From a virus (taxonomy: Duplodnaviria > Heunggongvirae > Uroviricota > Caudoviricetes): a stretch of DNA of 10,460 bases. The stretch lies in the IMG/VR virus record IMGVR_UViG_2585427739_000004, one strand, 5' to 3'. Numbering within the stretch: the stretch's first letter is position 1; every line of letters starts with the position of its first letter. The notes beneath the pieces are model-generated. The model ran no database searches, was not told the origin of the DNA, and worked only from the letters and a program-made list of their open reading frames with translations. Shown in pieces: positions 1 through 10,460 of the stretch. The translations under genes were made by a program, and so were the position numbers.

Positions 1-327
1 TTTTACGCGTATGACAGTCTCCGGAAGACGGTTGTTGCGCACGTATTCGGTGAGCGCACTATGGCGACGCTGGGGCGTCTTATGAGCCTGCTGTCACCCT
101 TTGACGTGGTGATATGGATGACGGATGGCTGGCCGCTGTATGAATCCCGCCTGAAGGGAAAGCTGCACGTAATCAGCAAGCGATATACGCAGCGAATTGA
201 GCGGCATAACCTGAATCTGAGGCAGCACCTGGCACGGCTGGGACGGAAGTCGCTGTCGTTCTCAAAATCGGTGGAGCTGCATGACAAAGTCATCGGGCAT
301 TATCTGAACATAAAACACTATCAATAA
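1..327 (+). CDS. insB: IS1 transposase InsB, C-terminal part (partial, start outside window)
   Basis: Frame 1 is open from base 1 and translates [51 protein letters not shown]...HYQ*, matching the recalled IS1 InsB C-terminus. The ORF-track start at 61 is only an internal Met. Confidence 0.9.
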
Positions 328-342
328 GTTGGAGTCATTACC
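1..342 (+). mobile_element. IS1: IS1 insertion sequence, 3' portion (5' part lies outside the window)
   Basis: InsB C-terminal reading frame runs 1-327 (...[20 protein letters not shown]). The element ends at 342 with the IS1 terminal inverted repeat (reverse complement of 320-342 = GGTAATGACTCCAACTTATTGAT). Confidence 0.95.
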
Positions 343-470
343 AGGCTCCTGATACAAATAGTTTTCTTCTAACAAATAAAGAATACTTATATGGTAAATT
401 TGGTATAAACGGATGGCAAAAATATGTACGATTCTTACGTGCATTCGTTGATGCGTATAAAAATTCCGAC

Positions 471-896
471 ATGATTTATACATATTTGCCTGGTGGTGAT
501 AATTGTACGCTTTCGGCAGACAATAGAATATTCATACCTATACTTGGTCTTGGGCTGATTAATGCAGTAAATGAAAGAGATGTTATAATTGTTAAGCAGT
601 GGCGAAAGCATGAGGGATATAGATATCTGCCATGCTTTGATATATTAAAAATACAGAATAAATTCTATGTAAAAATTAAATATAAAGAAGATGTTTTCTT
701 CCTCAGAAAAAACAAAGATCTTTTACAAGAACTTTCTGGGACAATAGATGTCATCGTAGGTTCTAGGTTTATAAAAGAACTGAAAGAAAGCAGGTCTTTC
801 TCTCGTGTAGAGATAAGCGAGTCAGAGTTATGGGGTATATCAAATAATCCTGTAAACCACGCTCACCAACGAAATCCAAACAAAAAGTGGTCATAA
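471..896 (+). CDS. hypothetical protein, AT-rich; probably a 3' fragment of a larger gene interrupted by IS1 (frame open back to 343)
   Basis: 141-codon ORF in markedly AT-rich DNA. The same frame has no stop between the IS1 boundary (343) and the ATG at 471, and there is no Shine-Dalgarno before 471. Followed immediately by a stem-loop plus T-tract. No recognisable motif. Confidence 0.5.
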   Translation: MIYTYLPGGDNCTLSADNRIFIPILGLGLINAVNERDVIIVKQWRKHEGYRYLPCFDILKIQNKFYVKIKYKEDVFFLRKNKDLLQELSGTIDVIVGSRFIKELKESRSFSRVEISESELWGISNNPVNHAHQRNPNKKWS

Positions 897-919
897 CCCG
901 CTCAGGCGGGTTTCATTTT
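897..919 (+). terminator. putative rho-independent terminator after the AT-rich ORF
   Basis: CCCGC-TCAG-GCGGG stem-loop (897-910) followed by TTTCATTTT, starting 1 nt after the stop codon. Confidence 0.5.
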
Positions 920-1039
920 CACGCAAACAAAAGAATAAACACTGCACTGTGTATTCATTCCAACGAGTGAATACACGGAGCAATGTCGCTCGTAACTAAA
1001 CAGGAGCCGACTTGTTCTGATTATTGGAAATCTTCTTTG

Positions 1040-1064
1040 CCCTCCAGTGTGAGGGAGATTTTTT
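1040..1064 (+). terminator. weak terminator-like hairpin in the leader upstream of ea10
   Basis: CCCTC-CAGTGT-GAGGG stem-loop, then AGA and a T6 run (1059-1064). The stem is short and a spacer separates it from the T-tract. Confidence 0.3.
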
Positions 1065-1084
1065 ATCTATGAGGATATGAATAG

Positions 1085-1453
1085 ATGTCAAACATCAAAA
1101 AATACATCATTGATTACGACTGGAAAGCATCAATAGAAATTGAAATCGACCATGACGTAATGACAGAGGAAAAACTTCACCAGATTAATAATTTCTGGTC
1201 AGACTCTGAATACCGACTCAATAAACACGGCTCTGTATTAAATGCTGTATTAATCATGCTGGCGCAACATGCTCTGCTTATAGCAATTTCAAGCGACTTA
1301 AATGCATATGGTGTTGTGTGTGAGTTCGACTGGAATGATGGAAATGGTCAGGAAGGATGGCCTCCAATGGATGGTAGCGAAGGAATAAGAATTACCAATA
1401 TCGATACATCAGGAATATTTGATCCAGATGATATGACTATCAAAGCCGCCTGA
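1085..1453 (+). CDS. ea10: lambda Ea10-like protein (122 aa)
   Basis: 122-aa ORF MSNIKKYIIDYDWKASIEIEIDHDV... matches recalled lambda Ea10 in sequence, length and position upstream of cIII. GAGGA Shine-Dalgarno at 1071-1075. Confidence 0.85.
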   Translation: MSNIKKYIIDYDWKASIEIEIDHDVMTEEKLHQINNFWSDSEYRLNKHGSVLNAVLIMLAQHALLIAISSDLNAYGVVCEFDWNDGNGQEGWPPMDGSEGIRITNIDTSGIFDPDDMTIKAA

Positions 1454-2178: not shown

Positions 2179-2964
2179 ATGAGTACAGCACTCGCAACGC
2201 TGGCAGGGAGGCTGGCTGAACGTGTCGGCATGGATTCTGTCGACCCACAGGAACTGATCACCACTCTTCGCCAGACGGCATTTAAAGGTGATGCCAGCGA
2301 TGCGCAGTTCATCGCATTGTTGATCGTCGCCAACCAGTACGGCCTTAATCCGTGGACGAAAGAAATTTACGCCTTCCCTGACAAGCAGAACGGCATCGTT
2401 CCGGTGGTGGGCGTTGATGGCTGGTCCCGTATCATCAATGAAAACCAGCAGTTTGATGGCATGGACTTTGAGCAGGACAATGAATCATGTACATGCCGGA
2501 TTTACCGCAAGGACCGTAATCATCCGATCTGCGTTACCGAGTGGATGGATGAATGCCGCCGCGAACCATTCAAAACCCGCGAAGGCAGAGAAATCACCGG
2601 ACCGTGGCAGTCGCATCCCAAACGGATGTTACGGCATAAAGCCATGATTCAGTGTGCCCGTCTGGCCTTCGGATTTGCTGGTATCTATGACAAGGATGAA
2701 GCCGAGCGCATTGTCGAAAATACCGCATACACTGCAGAACGTCAGCCGGAACGCGACATCACTCCGGTTAACGATGAAACCATGCAGGAGATTAACACTA
2801 TGCTGATTGCCCTGGACAAAACATGGGATGACGACTTATTGCCGCTCTGTTCCCAGATATTTCGCCGCGACATTCGCGCATCGTCAGAACTGACACAGGC
2901 CGAAGCAATGAAAGCTCTTGGATTCCTGAAACAGAAAGCCTCTGAACAGAAGGTGGCTGCATGA
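2179..2964 (+). CDS. bet: lambda Bet (Red-beta), single-strand annealing recombinase (261 aa)
   Basis: [65 protein letters not shown]... over full length. Starts 5 nt after the gam stop and shares the ATGA overlap with exo. Confidence 0.97.
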
Positions 2965-3641
2965 CACCGGACATTATCCTGCAGCGTACCGGGATCGACG
3001 TGAGAGCTGTCGAACAGGGGGATGATGCATGGCACAAATTACGGCTCGGCGTCATCACCGCTTCAGAAGTTCACAACGTGATAGCAAAGCCCCGCTCAGG
3101 AAAGAAGTGGCCTGACATGAAAATGTCCTACTTCCACACCCTGCTGGCTGAGGTTTGCACCGGTGTGGCTCCGGAAGTTAACGCTAAGGCGCTGGCCTGG
3201 GGAAAACAGTACGAGAACGACGCCAGAACCCTGTTTGAATTCACTTCCGGCGTGAATGTTACTGAATCCCCGATCATCTATCGCGACGAAAATATGCGCA
3301 CTGCCTGCTCTCCCGATGGTTTATGCAGTGACGGCAACGGCCTTGAACTGAAATGCCCGTTTACCTCCCGGGATTTCATGAAATTCCGGCTCGGTGGTTT
3401 CGAGGCAATAAAATCGGCTTACATGGCCCAGGTGCAGTACAGCATGTGGGTGACGCGAAAAGATGCCTGGTACTTTGCCAACTATGACCCGCGCATGAAG
3501 CGTGAAGGCCTGCATTATGTCGTGATTGAGCGGAATGAAAAGTACATGGCGAGTTTTGACGAGATGGTGCCGGAGTTCATCGAAAAAATGGACGAGGCAC
3601 TGGCTGAAATTGGTTTTGTATTTGGGGAGCAATGGCGATGA
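2961..3641 (+). CDS. exo: lambda Exo (Red-alpha), 5'-3' dsDNA exonuclease (226 aa)
   Basis: [40 protein letters not shown]... at full length. Catalytic D119, E129 and K131 are present (SPDG...LELKCP). Confidence 0.97.
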
Positions 3642-3657
3642 CGCATCCTCACGATAA

Positions 3658-4071
3658 TATCCGGGTACCGCCTGTAAAGTGTTGCGTGATCAAATAGGCA
3701 AGCATCACAAATGGGTGTTTGTACATACCAAGGCGGCTAAGCGAGCAGATGGAACATCAACGCCTGCGGTCAGGAAGATGCGCATCGACAGCAAGACATC
3801 ATGGCTATCAGCTTGTCGTCGTGCAGGAATTGAAGATTTCCGTTTCCATGACCTCAGACACACCTGGGCAAGCTGGCTGATTCAGTCAGGCGTCCCATTA
3901 TCAGTGCTTCAGGAAATGGGCGGATGGGAGTCCATAGAAATGGTTCGTAGGTATGCTCACCTTGCGCCTAATCATTTGACAGAGCATGCGAGGAAAATAG
4001 ACGACATTTTTGGTGATAATGTCCCAAATATGTCCCACTCTGGAATTATGGAGGATATAAAGAAGGCGTAA
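3658..4071 (+). pseudogene. C-terminal fragment (about 137 codons) of a prophage tyrosine integrase; N-terminal two-thirds deleted
   Basis: Frame opens at 3658 right after a stop and only 17 bp after exo. Contains the catalytic-domain motifs [10 protein letters not shown] and VRRYAHL (Tyr nucleophile) but no N-terminal or core-binding domain. Ends 15 bp from the 3' end of argU, convergent with it. Confidence 0.8.
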
Positions 4072-4086
4072 CTGATTGAATTGTAA

Positions 4087-4163
4087 TGGCGCGCCCTGCA
4101 GGATTCGAACCTGCGGCCCACGACTTAGAAGGTCGTTGCTCTATCCAACTGAGCTAAGGGCGC
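4087..4163 (-). tRNA. argU: tRNA-Arg, anticodon UCU (reads AGA)
   Basis: Reverse complement folds as a cloverleaf: GCGCCCT acceptor stem, anticodon stem ACGAC/GTCGT with loop CTTCTAA, TTCGAAT T-loop, 3' GCCA. Matches recalled E. coli argU (77 nt). Confidence 0.95.
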
Positions 4164-9919: not shown

Positions 9920-10164
9920 AGTTAATACGCCTTGTGTATTCCTGACGGCAAAAATAAGAAATATAAAGAAATGATTGCTTTGGTTTCTTACAACACATCA
10001 TTCCCTTTTCATTTAATAAAGCGGCATGATACAAAGTGAACATGATTTCGATTTACATTGCCACCATACCGCTTCAGACAACCGGTACATTACTTTGTTA
10101 TAAGACGTGGGTGATGCTGCCAACTTACTGATTTAGTGTATGATGGTGTTTTTGAGGTGCTCCA

Positions 10165-10440
10165 GTGGCTTCTGTTTCTATCAGCTGTCCCTCCTGTTCA
10201 GCTACTGACGGGGTGGTGCGTAACGGCAAAAGCACCGCCGGACATCAGCGCTATCTCTGCTCTCACTGCCGTAAAACATGGCAACTGCAGTTCACTTACA
10301 CCGCTTCTCAACCCGGTACGCACCAGAAAATCATTGATATGGCCATGAATGGCGTTGGATGCCGGGCAACTGCCCGCATTATGGGCGTTGGCCTCAACAC
10401 GATTTTACGTCACTTAAAAAACTCAGGCCGCAGTCGGTAA
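10165..10440 (+). CDS. insA: IS1 InsA, transposition inhibitor and N-terminal part of the InsAB' transposase (91 aa)
   Basis: [91 protein letters not shown], apparently with a GTG start. Confidence 0.93.
10414..10424 (+). other. IS1 programmed -1 ribosomal frameshift motif (A6C) joining insA to insB'
   Basis: TTAAAAAACTC at 10414-10424, just before the insA stop; this is the known IS1 slippery site. Confidence 0.8.
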
Positions 10441-10460
10441 CCTCGCGCATACAGCCGGGC

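What the first reader, a model, noticed from the sequence alone, without database searches (positions are those of the whole stretch)
343..919. AT-rich orphan gene at the ral/sieB position of the lambdoid remnant, apparently decapitated by IS1
Bases 343-896 are much more AT-rich than the flanking lambda-like and chromosomal DNA (roughly 30% versus 50% GC, estimated by eye). They carry a + strand ORF whose frame stays open from the ATG at 471 back to the IS1 end at 343, which is 42 sense codons in AT-rich DNA with no ribosome-binding site before 471. The ORF ends in a clean hairpin plus T-tract. It sits upstream of ea10, where lambda carries its accessory ral and sieB genes. I do not recognise the 184-aa fragment (...LYGKFGINGWQKYVRFLRAFVDAYKNSDMIYTYLPGGDNCTLS...KIKYKEDVFFLRKNKDLLQEL..., Lys-rich C-terminal half). 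It is the best candidate here for an uncharacterised prophage cargo gene, possibly defence or counter-defence, but it is only a fragment.
Basis: partly seen in the sequence, partly recalled or inferred. Interest (0 to 1): 0.6.

Follow-up and report, generated by a model that had tools for sequence, protein, structure and literature searches.

The report
IS1-truncated phage 434 Nun-tail gene
The AT-rich stretch is the dead, IS1-beheaded 3' two-thirds of a little-studied lambdoid phage gene (phage 434 gene 48) whose full protein probably joins a nuclease-less TnpB/Cas12-like nucleic-acid-binding module to the RNA-polymerase-jamming tail of the HK022 Nun exclusion protein.

Summary
Bases 343-896 are 33% GC, against about 51% in the flanks. 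IS1 ends at 342. One frame is open from 345 to the stop at 894-896, and a hairpin follows at 895-912.

Intact prophages and phage 434 carry a 289-codon gene directly after N. The window keeps only codons 107-289, so IS1 did behead it. This copy is a pseudogene remnant.

The gene is not a complete orphan. GenBank calls the 434 copy a "Nun C-terminal peptide-containing protein" (phrog_12139), but I found no functional study.

New here:
- **Tail conservation:** the last 14 residues (VNHAHQRNPNKKWS) equal HK022 Nun 96-109. Homologues only 42-49% identical keep the RNAP-contacting residues despite synonymous divergence.
- **Position:** in two phages the gene sits behind pL-putL, exactly where nun sits in HK022.
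- **Relatives:** distant relatives with a different tail lie inside BREX operons.

Best reading: a Nun-type transcription-arrest exclusion factor with a new targeting domain. The function is inferred, not shown.

The parts
1..342 (+). 3' part of IS1 (end of insB, stop at 325-327, right terminal repeat ending at 342)
   Evidence: ORF 61-327 is the InsB C-terminus. It is annotated as an IS1A transposase in the identical NT1F25 locus. The joint alignment shows homology to intact prophages beginning at 343.
343..896 (+). Beheaded 3' part of the phage 434 gene 48 family gene: two bases of codon 106, then codons 107-289 and the stop (894-896). 33% GC.
   Evidence: Translation. 99-100% DNA identity to E. 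coli prophage copies. Full-length 289-aa gene in L001 and phage 434. phrog_12139 matches fragment residues 1-183 to profile positions 107-289, E=2e-129.
345..701 (+). Remaining part (residues 107-225) of the predicted TnpB/Cas12-like WED/REC core. The first WED strand (71-77) and first helix (80-102) are lost with the deleted 5' part.
471..473 (+). Internal Met149 codon, used by automatic annotation as the start of a 141-aa 'hypothetical protein'. It is not the native start.
   Evidence: PGAP CDS 6129-6554 in L002. No Shine-Dalgarno sequence upstream. The native start lies 106 codons upstream of the IS1 joint in intact copies.
804..851 (+). Predicted disordered linker (residues 260-275) between the folded body and the tail
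   Evidence: pLDDT is below 50 for residues 260-282.
852..893 (+). Nun-type C-terminal peptide VNHAHQRNPNKKWS (residues 276-289), identical to HK022 and HK75 Nun residues 96-109
   Evidence: PDB 6alg_N alignment. phrog_5632 Nun-like hit. HK75 Nun translation. Codon table. V, N, H, A, H, R, K, K, W are invariant in homologues of 42-68% identity.
852..1066 (+). DNA module shared at about 94% identity with nun-carrying phages (HK75, mEpX1 and others): last 14 codons, stop, hairpin, inverted repeat and terminator
   Evidence: blastn against phages: homology to HK75 and mEpX1 starts at query base 72 of 780-1084 (about 851) and ends near 1066. Three-way alignment.
895..922 (+). Hairpin (7-bp stem, 4-nt loop) overlapping the stop codon, followed by TCATTTTCAC
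   Evidence: Terminator-like scan. Inverted-repeat search I2.
939..986 (+). Imperfect 22-nt-arm inverted repeat in the spacer, conserved in 434 and HK75. Function unknown.
   Evidence: the repeat finder I1. Nearly invariant columns in the window/434/HK75 alignment.
1040..1065 (+). Intrinsic-terminator-like hairpin CCCTCCAGTGTGAGGG plus T-run, at the position of the terminator annotated in phage 434
   Evidence: Scan. Annotated terminator in 434 (L003 5011-5040). HK75 annotates terminators in the same stretch (L007 2689-2716).
1085..1453 (+). ea10 homologue (DUF2528), the next gene of the pL operon
   Evidence: ORF list. Annotations in L001, L002 and phage 434.

Best explanation
Bases 343-896 are the 3' two-thirds (codons 107-289) of a 289-codon early-left-operon gene of 434-like lambdoid phages (phage 434 gene 48, phrog_12139). 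An IS1-associated deletion removed its first 106 codons, N, the immunity region and the rest of the prophage. This copy is a pseudogene remnant.

The intact protein has four parts:
1. a basic N-terminal helical hairpin (residues 16-65);
2. a core (about 71-225) predicted to fold like the WED/REC nucleic-acid-recognition module of TnpB/Cas12, with no RuvC nuclease or zinc-ribbon domain;
3. two to three helices (about 221-259), followed by a disordered linker (about 260-275);
4. the last 14 residues of the HK022 Nun protein.

Proposed mechanism (inferred, not shown): the folded body recognises a specific nucleic-acid target, either a nascent RNA structure or a DNA site on a competing phage or other invader. 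The flexible tail then threads into the active-site cleft of the nearby elongating RNA polymerase, as Nun's tail does, and locks the enzyme to the DNA and RNA so that it cannot translocate. That would make the protein a Nun-type transcription-arrest exclusion factor whose arginine-rich RNA-binding peptide has been replaced by a much larger targeting domain.
For: **Shown: identity and truncation**
- The IS1 joint is at 342/343.
- 289-aa full-length copies sit directly after N in E. coli prophages and in phage 434.
- The fragment matches phrog_12139 positions 107-289.

**Shown: the tail**
- The tail is identical to Nun 96-109.
- Homologues of 68, 49-47, 42 and 36% identity keep V-N-H-A-H-x-R-x-x-x-K-K-W.
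- Between lineages the tail codons differ at 6-8 synonymous sites. Amino-acid changes within the tail fall only at Nun positions 101, 103 and 105, and the downstream DNA is unrelated. This points to purifying selection on the peptide rather than a recent recombination scar.
- The invariant residues are those reported to contact RNAP, RNA and DNA in the Nun elongation-complex cryo-EM structure: N97, H98, H100, R102, K106, K107 and W108. N103, reported as dispensable, varies. Nun lacking its last 13 residues is reported as inactive and unable to bind RNAP (PMC5386594).

**Shown: position**
- In L005 and L048 the gene follows an HK022-type pL and putL (about 95% identical to HK75 putL) with no N gene. 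That is the slot of nun in HK022 and HK75.
- In 434, L004 and L047 it starts 2-9 nt after the N stop codon.

**Shown: the tail is a portable module**
- Small proteins carry the same tail on different basic N-termini. Hafnia phage Pocitis76 ORF43 has a lambda-N-like arginine-rich motif while its own N has a different one.
- Similar small proteins occur in Photorhabdus, Proteus and Providencia.

**Predicted: the fold**
- The AlphaFold model from a 23-sequence alignment has pLDDT 82 and pTM 0.71, with the tail disordered.
- Foldseek's 11 best PDB hits are all Cas12 proteins. Its BFVD hits include giant-virus 'transposases' and a Cas12f1-like TNB-domain protein.
- Profile-profile alignment to a TnpB WED/REC profile is collinear and in register.

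**Shown: defence context of the core domain**
- Distant relatives lie between brxC and pglX in BREX operons and in a second defence island.
Against: - No experiment addresses this protein, and I found no paper on it.
- Nun residues 87-95, including H93 and R94 which contact the upstream DNA, are not conserved in this family.
- 434 itself uses a lambda-type N and nut system. The factor therefore cannot target lambda-type nut as Nun does without harming its own phage. Its target is unknown.
- No promoter-like site lies just upstream of the gene in 434. It may be made only from pL during lytic growth, not in the lysogen, which fits an exclusion role less well.
- The TnpB/Cas12 similarity rests on a predicted structure. 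Sequence-level support is not significant: hhalign P=0.005-0.04, probability below 10%. There is no Pfam hit and no PDB sequence hit for the core.
- Foldseek E-values are weak, 0.01-0.3.
- A 260-residue folded body might hinder entry of the tail into the RNAP cleft.
Confidence: 0.6

Rival explanations
1. The folded core does the real work, as a sensor or adaptor of an anti-phage or anti-defence system related to the BREX-embedded homologues. The C-terminal tail is an exchangeable docking peptide. In lambdoid phages it happens to be the Nun peptide, but the outcome need not be Nun-like transcription arrest. It could be recruitment to RNA polymerase for another purpose, such as host shut-off, regulation of the phage's own pL transcription, or interference with a host defence.
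For: About 20 distant relatives share the core and the 'S-x-x-Y-S-R-V-D-F' segment. They end in a different conserved tail, G-x-P-V-x-G-G-L-P-S-L-G-K-R-R. Two lie between BrxC and PglX in BREX operons, and one sits beside DISARM-like genes. In 434 the gene is apparently co-transcribed with N from pL, with no promoter-like site of its own.
Against: The conservation pattern of the tail matches the residues through which Nun arrests RNAP. The gene replaces nun exactly behind putL. The E. coli type I BREX layout recalled from general knowledge (not checked with the tools) has no counterpart of this protein. PADLOC does not recognise either the phage protein or the BREX-embedded one.
Confidence: 0.2
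2. The Nun peptide is a recombination scar. An unrelated AT-rich cargo gene was inserted into an ancestral nun gene and borrowed its last 14 codons, stop and terminator. The tail has no function in this protein.
For: In E. coli and 434 copies the homology to nun phages is a DNA-level mosaic joint. It begins at the Val276 codon and continues 170 bp past the stop at about 94% identity. GC content jumps from 33% to 42% at that point.
Against: Homologues at 36-49% identity, with unrelated downstream DNA, keep the tail at the protein level while their codons differ synonymously. The amino-acid changes fall only at positions that Nun tolerates or that were not reported as critical contacts.
Confidence: 0.07
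3. It is a divergent member of a known lambda accessory family from that slot (SieB or Ral), or another known family.
For: Only the map position between N and ea10 supports this.
Against: There are no Pfam, NCBIfam or PADLOC hits at E<=1. PHROGs assigns it to its own family of unknown function. The predicted fold is a soluble alpha/beta protein. The only other PDB sequence hit, D-Ala-D-Ala ligase at E=0.046 over 60 residues, is not supported by the fold search.
Confidence: 0.02

Closest known systems
HK022 Nun transcription termination/arrest factor (phrog_5632; PDB 6ALG chain N)
   Same: The last 14 residues are identical (Nun 96-109) and include all reported RNAP, RNA and DNA contact residues of that segment. 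Both are encoded at the start of the pL operon of lambdoid phages. In L005 and L048 the gene sits exactly in nun's place behind putL. The segment before the tail is predicted to be flexible.
   Different: The protein is 289 aa rather than 109-112 aa. It has no recognisable arginine-rich boxB-binding motif and instead has a folded domain of about 260 residues. Nun residues 87-95 (H93, R94) are not conserved. In 434 it coexists with a lambda-type N, so its target cannot be the same as Nun's. No activity has been shown.
Phage 434 gene 48 product (CPT_434_48, UMO75312.1, 'Nun C-terminal peptide-containing protein'); phrog_12139; E. coli WP_001569075.1
   Same: Same gene: 97% amino-acid identity over 289 residues to the intact E. 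coli allele, and the window fragment matches positions 107-289.
   Different: The window copy lacks codons 1-106 and all upstream expression signals. The GenBank label notes only the BLAST similarity to Nun. No function, fold or family analysis has been published (PMC9119081 does not discuss it).
TnpB / Cas12 RNA-guided nucleases (WED and REC domains), and nuclease-dead TnpB derivatives such as TldR
   Different: There is no RuvC or zinc-ribbon domain at all, whereas TldR proteins keep an inactivated RuvC. No adjacent guide-RNA locus, no IS200/IS605 ends and no TnpA were seen. Sequence similarity is not significant.
Small Nun-tail proteins with other N-termini (Hafnia phage Pocitis76 ORF43; Photorhabdus, Proteus and Providencia prophage proteins)
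   Same: They share the C-terminal NHAHQR...KKW peptide. The phage-encoded example (Pocitis76 ORF43) sits just after N in the pL operon.
   Different: They are 88-103 aa with short basic, arginine-rich-type N-termini, not a folded domain.

Membership tests
Nun (HK022-type transcription arrest factor) | C-terminal RNAP-arrest segment with N97, H98, H100, R102, K106, K107 and W108 at the extreme C-terminus | tested here: met
   VNHAHQRNPNKKWS is identical to Nun 96-109. These residues are invariant in all Nun-tail homologues. Their functional roles are taken from PMC5386594.
Nun (HK022-type transcription arrest factor) | N-terminal arginine-rich motif that binds the boxB RNA hairpin | tested here: not met
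   The phrog_5632 match covers only the last 20 residues. The N-terminal basic stretch (residues 17-32) is lysine-rich. It is predicted to be part of a packed helical hairpin, and its aromatic residue Y32 is not conserved.
Nun (HK022-type transcription arrest factor) | Residues 87-95 (including H93 and R94) that contact the beta' zipper and the upstream DNA | tested here: not met
   The alignment to 6alg_N shows no conservation before V96. The corresponding positions vary within the family.
Nun (HK022-type transcription arrest factor) | Encoded at the promoter-proximal end of the pL operon of a lambdoid phage | tested here: met
   The gene lies directly after N in 434, L001, L004 and L047. It lies directly after pL-putL in L005 and L048.
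Nun (HK022-type transcription arrest factor) | Arrests RNAP translocation and excludes a target phage | not testable with these tools
   This needs in vitro transcription and plating assays.
TnpB / Cas12 (type V) superfamily | WED plus REC N-terminal module | tested here: inconclusive
TnpB / Cas12 (type V) superfamily | C-terminal RuvC nuclease domain with zinc-ribbon (TNB) insertion | tested here: not met
   After about residue 225 the protein has only about 35 helical residues and a disordered tail. No OrfB_IS605 or OrfB_Zn_ribbon Pfam hit was found in any of 23 members.
TnpB / Cas12 (type V) superfamily | Adjacent guide RNA (omega RNA or CRISPR) and IS200/IS605 context | tested here: not met
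   The gene abuts N on the 5' side. The downstream spacer in E. coli and 434 is shared with nun phages, and it is unrelated or nearly absent in L004 and L005. There are no Rfam hits in L004 or L005. No IS200/IS605 genes appear in any of the contexts examined. RNA binding itself was not tested.
SieB / Ral (lambda accessory genes of the same map position) | Sequence membership in the Pfam SieB or Ral families | tested here: not met
   No Pfam hit at E<=1 for the full-length protein or the fragment. That Pfam holds SieB and Ral models is my recollection, not checked here. PHROGs gives only phrog_12139 and the Nun tail, apart from a negligible head-scaffolding match at E=0.17.
BREX accessory component | Encoded within a BREX operon and recognised by defence-system models | tested here: not met
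   The phage gene lies in a pL operon, not in BREX. Only distant relatives (about 20-27% identity, different tail) lie between brxC and pglX. PADLOC recognises neither.

The most novel reading that the evidence does not exclude
A nuclease-less WED/REC module descended from TnpB/Cas12 has been domesticated as a sequence- or structure-specific targeting domain and coupled to short effector tails. In lambdoid phages the tail is the Nun RNA-polymerase-arrest peptide, giving a programmable-looking 'find the invader's nucleic acid, then jam the polymerase on it' exclusion factor. In BREX operons it is a different conserved tail (GGLPSLGKRR) with an unknown partner. This would be a new class of TnpB-derived defence proteins that work through transcription arrest rather than cleavage or simple repression.
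Probability: 0.3. Interest if true: 0.8.

Novelty: new variant of a known kind. Interest (0 to 1): 0.6.

Why it matters
Nun is the textbook case of a phage protein that blocks a rival by freezing RNA polymerase on the rival's DNA. Until now it has been treated as a small one-off protein of about 110 residues.

This analysis shows that its arrest peptide is a conserved, portable module. It appears on several different N-terminal targeting parts, including a 260-residue folded domain in the classical phage 434 and in about 1.5% of complete E. coli genomes.

If the large domain really is a TnpB/Cas12-type WED/REC module, it would link the RNA-guided nuclease superfamily to transcription-arrest immunity and, through its distant relatives, to BREX. 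The mechanism of BREX is still unresolved.

The hypothesis is cheap to test. Phage 434, Nun-resistant rpoC mutants and the Nun in vitro assay all exist.

The window's own copy is a dead fragment with no expected function.

Tried and rejected
- **Wrong frame:** translating from 343 as written gives a stop-filled frame. The correct frame starts at 345.
- **Known families:** Pfam, NCBIfam and PADLOC gave nothing for the fragment or the full-length protein. The SieB/Ral idea was rejected.
- **D-Ala-D-Ala ligase:** a weak PDB sequence hit (E=0.046, 60 residues) was rejected because neither fold search supports it.
- **First AlphaFold run:** with only 4 sequences it was unusable (pLDDT 47). The second run, with 23 sequences, was used instead.
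  - The afdb50 library was unavailable.
  - The search for related loci on genome contigs with the distant-relative alignment failed for lack of a conserved stretch.
- **PDB profile search:** an hmmsearch of the family profile against PDB sequences found nothing.
- **Rfam:** scans of L004 and L005 found nothing. putL was recognised only by direct alignment to the HK75 annotation.
- **N-terminal arginine-rich motif:** residues 17-32 (SERKKHKKEAEKLANY) loosely resemble lambda N's motif (RRRERRAEKQAQW). I did not adopt this. The aromatic residue is not conserved, the stretch is lysine-rich, and it is predicted to pack in a helical hairpin.
- **Split gene in NT1F25:** I checked whether the 5' half of the gene had been moved elsewhere. 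It has not. The second hit is a separate, intact 434-like prophage.
- **Literature:** searches for the 434 gene, Nun-like proteins, TnpB with Nun, and the GGLPSLGKR tail found no functional study.
Full report
**1. What is in the window**

The window is an E. coli chromosomal segment. From left to right it holds:
- the 3' end of IS1 (1-342);
- an AT-rich gene fragment (343-896);
- a run of lambdoid pL-operon genes: ea10 (1085-1453), cIII, kil, gam, bet (2179-2964) and exo (2961-3641);
- a C-terminal integrase fragment (3679-4071);
- tRNA-Arg(UCU) (4087-4163, minus strand);
- fimZ, sfmF, sfmH, sfmD and sfmC;
- the start of a second IS1 from 10111.

Bases 343-1084 are 100% identical to E. coli NT1F25, where the same layout is annotated.

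**2. Checking the observation**

- GC is 33.2% for 343-896, against 52.3% for the IS1 end and 50.7% for cIII to exo.
- IS1 ends at 342.
- Bases 343-344 are the last two bases of a split Lys codon. The open frame then runs from 345 to the TAA at 894-896: 183 residues, APDTNSF...NPNKKWS.
- There are 42 sense codons between 345 and ATG 471, and no Shine-Dalgarno sequence before that ATG.
- A 7-bp hairpin (895-912) overlaps the stop and is followed by TCATTTTCAC.

All elements of the observation are confirmed. The corrections are the frame start (345, not 343), the length (183 residues, not 184) and the imperfect T-tract.

**3. IS1 did behead the gene**

In intact prophages (for example TUM11353, locus L001) and in phage 434 (OL657226, gene CPT_434_48) the gene is 870 bp, or 289 codons. 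It starts 9 nt after the stop of the antiterminator gene N, and ea10 follows it. Aligning the joint shows that the window copy begins inside codon 106.

PHROGs places the fragment at positions 107-289 of phrog_12139, E=2e-129. PGAP's 141-aa 'hypothetical protein' starting at ATG 471 is an annotation artefact built on an internal methionine.

To the left of IS1 in NT1F25 lie IS3, ybcH and nfrA. The event therefore removed the 5' 106 codons together with N, the immunity region and the rest of the prophage.

Among 5426 complete E. coli genomes:
- 84 carry the 5' part of the gene;
- 89 carry at least 80% of 343-1084;
- 9 carry this exact IS1 joint.

NT1F25 also has a separate, intact 434-like prophage with a full-length copy.

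The missing part includes the N-terminal hairpin, the first strand and the first helix of the predicted core, and no expression signals remain. The window copy is best regarded as a non-functional remnant.

**4. The tail is the Nun arrest peptide, and it is conserved**

Pfam, NCBIfam and PADLOC find nothing. The last 20 residues hit the PHROG for 'Nun-like transcription termination factor' and the solved Nun chain 6alg_N. VNHAHQRNPNKKWS is identical to Nun residues 96-109.

In the E. coli and 434 copies this is also a DNA-level mosaic joint. About 94% identity to nun phages (HK75, mEpX1) starts at the Val276 codon (about 852) and runs to about 1066. Taken alone, that could be a recombination scar.

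However, the protein searches found divergent full-length homologues:

| Homologue | Identity to the E. coli/434 protein |
|---|---|
| P0003 | 68% |
| P0004, P0006 | 49-47% |
| P0005 | 42% |
| P0007 | 36% |

All of them end in VNHAH-x-R-x-x-x-KKW(S). In L004, L005 and L047:
- the tail codons differ from the window's at 6-8 synonymous positions;
- 4 of the 15 codons compared are non-synonymous: the residue just before the tail and Nun positions 101, 103 and 105;
- the DNA after the stop is unrelated.

According to the cryo-EM study of the Nun elongation complex (PMC5386594):
- residues 87-109 lie in the active-site cleft;
- N97, H98, H100, R102, K106, K107 and W108 make the contacts with the beta' rudder, RNA and DNA;
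- N103 is dispensable;

The invariant and variable positions of the family match this pattern. Residues corresponding to Nun 87-95 (H93, R94) are not conserved.

**5. Position supports functional equivalence with nun**

In L005 and L048 the 290-codon homologue is the first gene after the repressor gene, with no N gene present. The leader carries an HK022-type pL and a putL element about 95% identical to the annotated putL of HK75. This is exactly the pL-putL-nun arrangement of HK022 and HK75. In 434, L004 and L047 the gene follows a lambda-type N with a 2-9 nt gap.

The same tail also occurs on small proteins with other N-termini:
- Hafnia phage Pocitis76 ORF43 (88 aa) has a lambda-N-like arginine-rich motif, MDAQARRREKRKAKQEEWK. 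It sits directly after an N whose own motif is different, which is the logic expected of an exclusion factor aimed at other phages.
- A degenerate-pattern scan of 185,579 species genomes found six genuine tail-bearing proteins: three near-identical Nun copies of 112 aa (Escherichia sp., Shimwellia and an Oxalobacter-labelled MAG) and three of about 96-103 aa with different N-termini (Photorhabdus, Proteus, Providencia). It also found two chance hits.

The Nun peptide is thus a portable module, and the 289-aa architecture is its rarest and largest carrier.

**6. The body of the protein**

An exhaustive profile search of 1.84 billion cluster representatives found only 27 relatives. About 20 of them are distant (about 16-25% identity, 213-326 aa). 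They share the core (profile positions about 75-225) and a C-terminal 'S-x-x-Y-S-R-V-D-F' segment, but end in a different conserved tail, G-x-P-V-x-G-G-L-P-S-L-G-K-R-R. None has a Pfam domain.

With this 23-sequence alignment AlphaFold gave a confident model: pLDDT 82, pTM 0.71, with residues 260-282 below 50. The model has:
- a helical hairpin (16-65);
- a strand (71-77);
- a helical bundle (80-145);
- a beta-sheet region containing one helix (152-219);
- helices (221-259);
- a disordered tail.

Fold searches gave these results:
- Foldseek's first 11 PDB hits are all Cas12k, p, n, l or f, though weakly (E 0.01-0.3).
- The viral library returns giant-virus TnpB-type 'transposases'.

The topology matches the WED strand, REC bundle, WED sheet order of TnpB.

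I built a TnpB WED/REC profile from 88 homologues of ISDra2 TnpB residues 1-190. The query sequence was first verified against 8h1j, and the homologues came. hhalign aligned the family collinearly and in register ('L-x-P-x-x-x-Q' with 'riyPNxxQ', and 'vyfPI..LG' with 'iKLPKLG'). The result is not statistically significant: P=0.005 and 0.04.

There is no room for a RuvC or zinc-ribbon domain, and none is detected. I therefore treat 'nuclease-less TnpB/Cas12-like WED/REC module' as a fold-level inference at roughly two-in-three confidence, not as established homology.

**7. Context of the distant relatives**

- P0035 and P0036 lie between brxC and pglX in operons that PADLOC identifies as BrxA-BrxB-BrxC-[gene]-PglX. 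Two unassigned genes, an Hsp70-like gene and a second methyltransferase follow.
- P0032 lies in an island with ParB-like, NYN, RelA/SpoT, PLD, MZB and helicase genes.

The core domain is therefore repeatedly found in defence contexts. That fits a role in recognising foreign nucleic acid, but the function of these proteins and of their tail is unknown.

**8. Mechanism proposed**

Shown:
- the identity and truncation of the gene;
- conservation of the Nun contact residues;
- the positional swap with nun;
- the modular distribution of the tail.

Inferred:
- The folded body binds a specific RNA or DNA feature of a target genome.
- The flexible linker lets the tail enter the cleft of the adjacent elongation complex.
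- The tail cross-links RNAP to the nucleic-acid scaffold as Nun's does, aborting the target's early transcription.

Open points:
- The target is unknown. It cannot be lambda-type nut in phages that themselves use lambda-type N.
- It is not known whether the gene is expressed in lysogens. No promoter-like site lies just upstream in 434.
- It is not known whether the body binds RNA, DNA or a guide.

**9. Novelty and literature**

The 434 GenBank record already labels the gene 'Nun C-terminal peptide-containing protein' on BLAST similarity. The genome announcement does not discuss it (PMC9119081). Searches found no functional or structural work.

The Nun tail is thus known at annotation level. 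Four points appear to be new:
- family-wide selective conservation of the tail;
- the nun-slot replacement behind putL;
- the TnpB/Cas12-like core;
- the BREX-embedded relatives.

I classify it as a new variant of a known kind: a Nun-type arrest factor with a new targeting domain.

**10. Verdict**

The window copy is a dead fragment, but the gene it comes from is a worthwhile and easily testable candidate.

Noticed in passing
window 10111-10460 (and 1-342): A second IS1 begins at 10111 (GGTGATGCTGCCAACTTACTG...), in the same orientation as the IS1 that ends at 342. The two direct IS1 copies bracket 9.8 kb holding the prophage remnant, argU, fimZ and sfmF-sfmH-sfmD-sfmC. The right-hand copy sits just upstream of sfmC, where sfmA would be expected. 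The segment looks like a composite-transposon-like or deletion-prone unit.
   Followed up: partly
window 3642-4071: exo (ending at 3641) is followed almost at once by a C-terminal integrase fragment (ORF 3679-4071, annotated 'missing N-terminus' in NT1F25). A second deletion has therefore removed the genes between exo and int, including xis, and the 5' part of int. The remnant cannot excise.
   Followed up: partly
window 939-986: An imperfect inverted repeat with 22-nt arms (82% complementary, 4-nt gap) lies in the spacer between the Nun-tail gene and the terminator. It is almost invariant between this window, phage 434 and HK75, and is not annotated in either phage. It could be a protein-binding site or an RNA hairpin.
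   Followed up: no
window 782-804 (minus strand): A terminator-like hairpin plus T-run lies on the minus strand inside the coding region and is also present in phage 434 (L003 4756-4778). It is probably a chance feature of AT-rich coding DNA.
   Followed up: no
L005 2845-3110 and L048 3709-3973: Two uncultured lambdoid phages have an HK022-type pL and a putL element (about 95% identical to HK75 putL) but no N gene. The 290-aa Nun-tail gene sits in place of nun. This is a natural swap of the small and large Nun-tail proteins.
   Followed up: yes
L014 2282-2548 (Hafnia phage Pocitis76 ORF43): An 88-aa protein annotated 'transcriptional regulator' combines a near-copy of the lambda N arginine-rich motif (MDAQARRREKRKAKQEEWK) with a Nun tail (VVNHAHQRNRHKKW). 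It lies directly after an N gene whose own motif is different. It looks like a Nun analogue built from an N-type RNA-binding peptide.
   Followed up: partly
L010 8001-8867, L008 8001-8831, L011 4390-5256: Distant relatives of the core domain (276-288 aa, with the tail ...GRPV-x-GGLPSLGK-x-R) are encoded between brxC and pglX in BREX operons that also carry an Hsp70-like gene and a second MmeI-type methyltransferase. PADLOC does not recognise them. The role of this gene and of its conserved tail is unknown.
   Followed up: partly
L012 2153-2992: Another distant relative (P0032, 279 aa) lies in a defence-island-like cluster with ParB-N, NYN/OST-HTH, RelA/SpoT, PLD, MZB (DUF1998-type) and helicase genes.
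   Followed up: no
L052, L054, L049 (Photorhabdus temperata, Proteus vulgaris, Providencia sp.): Small proteins (about 96-103 aa) end in the Nun peptide (VVNHAHQRNP[KN]KKW, or ...QRSASKKW) but have N-terminal basic regions unlike Nun's. Nun-type factors are therefore spread across Enterobacterales with diversified targeting peptides. Their genomic contexts were not examined.
   Followed up: no
L013 5001-5870 (NT1F25 3099223-3100092): The strain that matches the window exactly also carries a complete 434-like prophage with an intact copy of the gene. One genome therefore holds both the dead and the live allele.
   Followed up: yes
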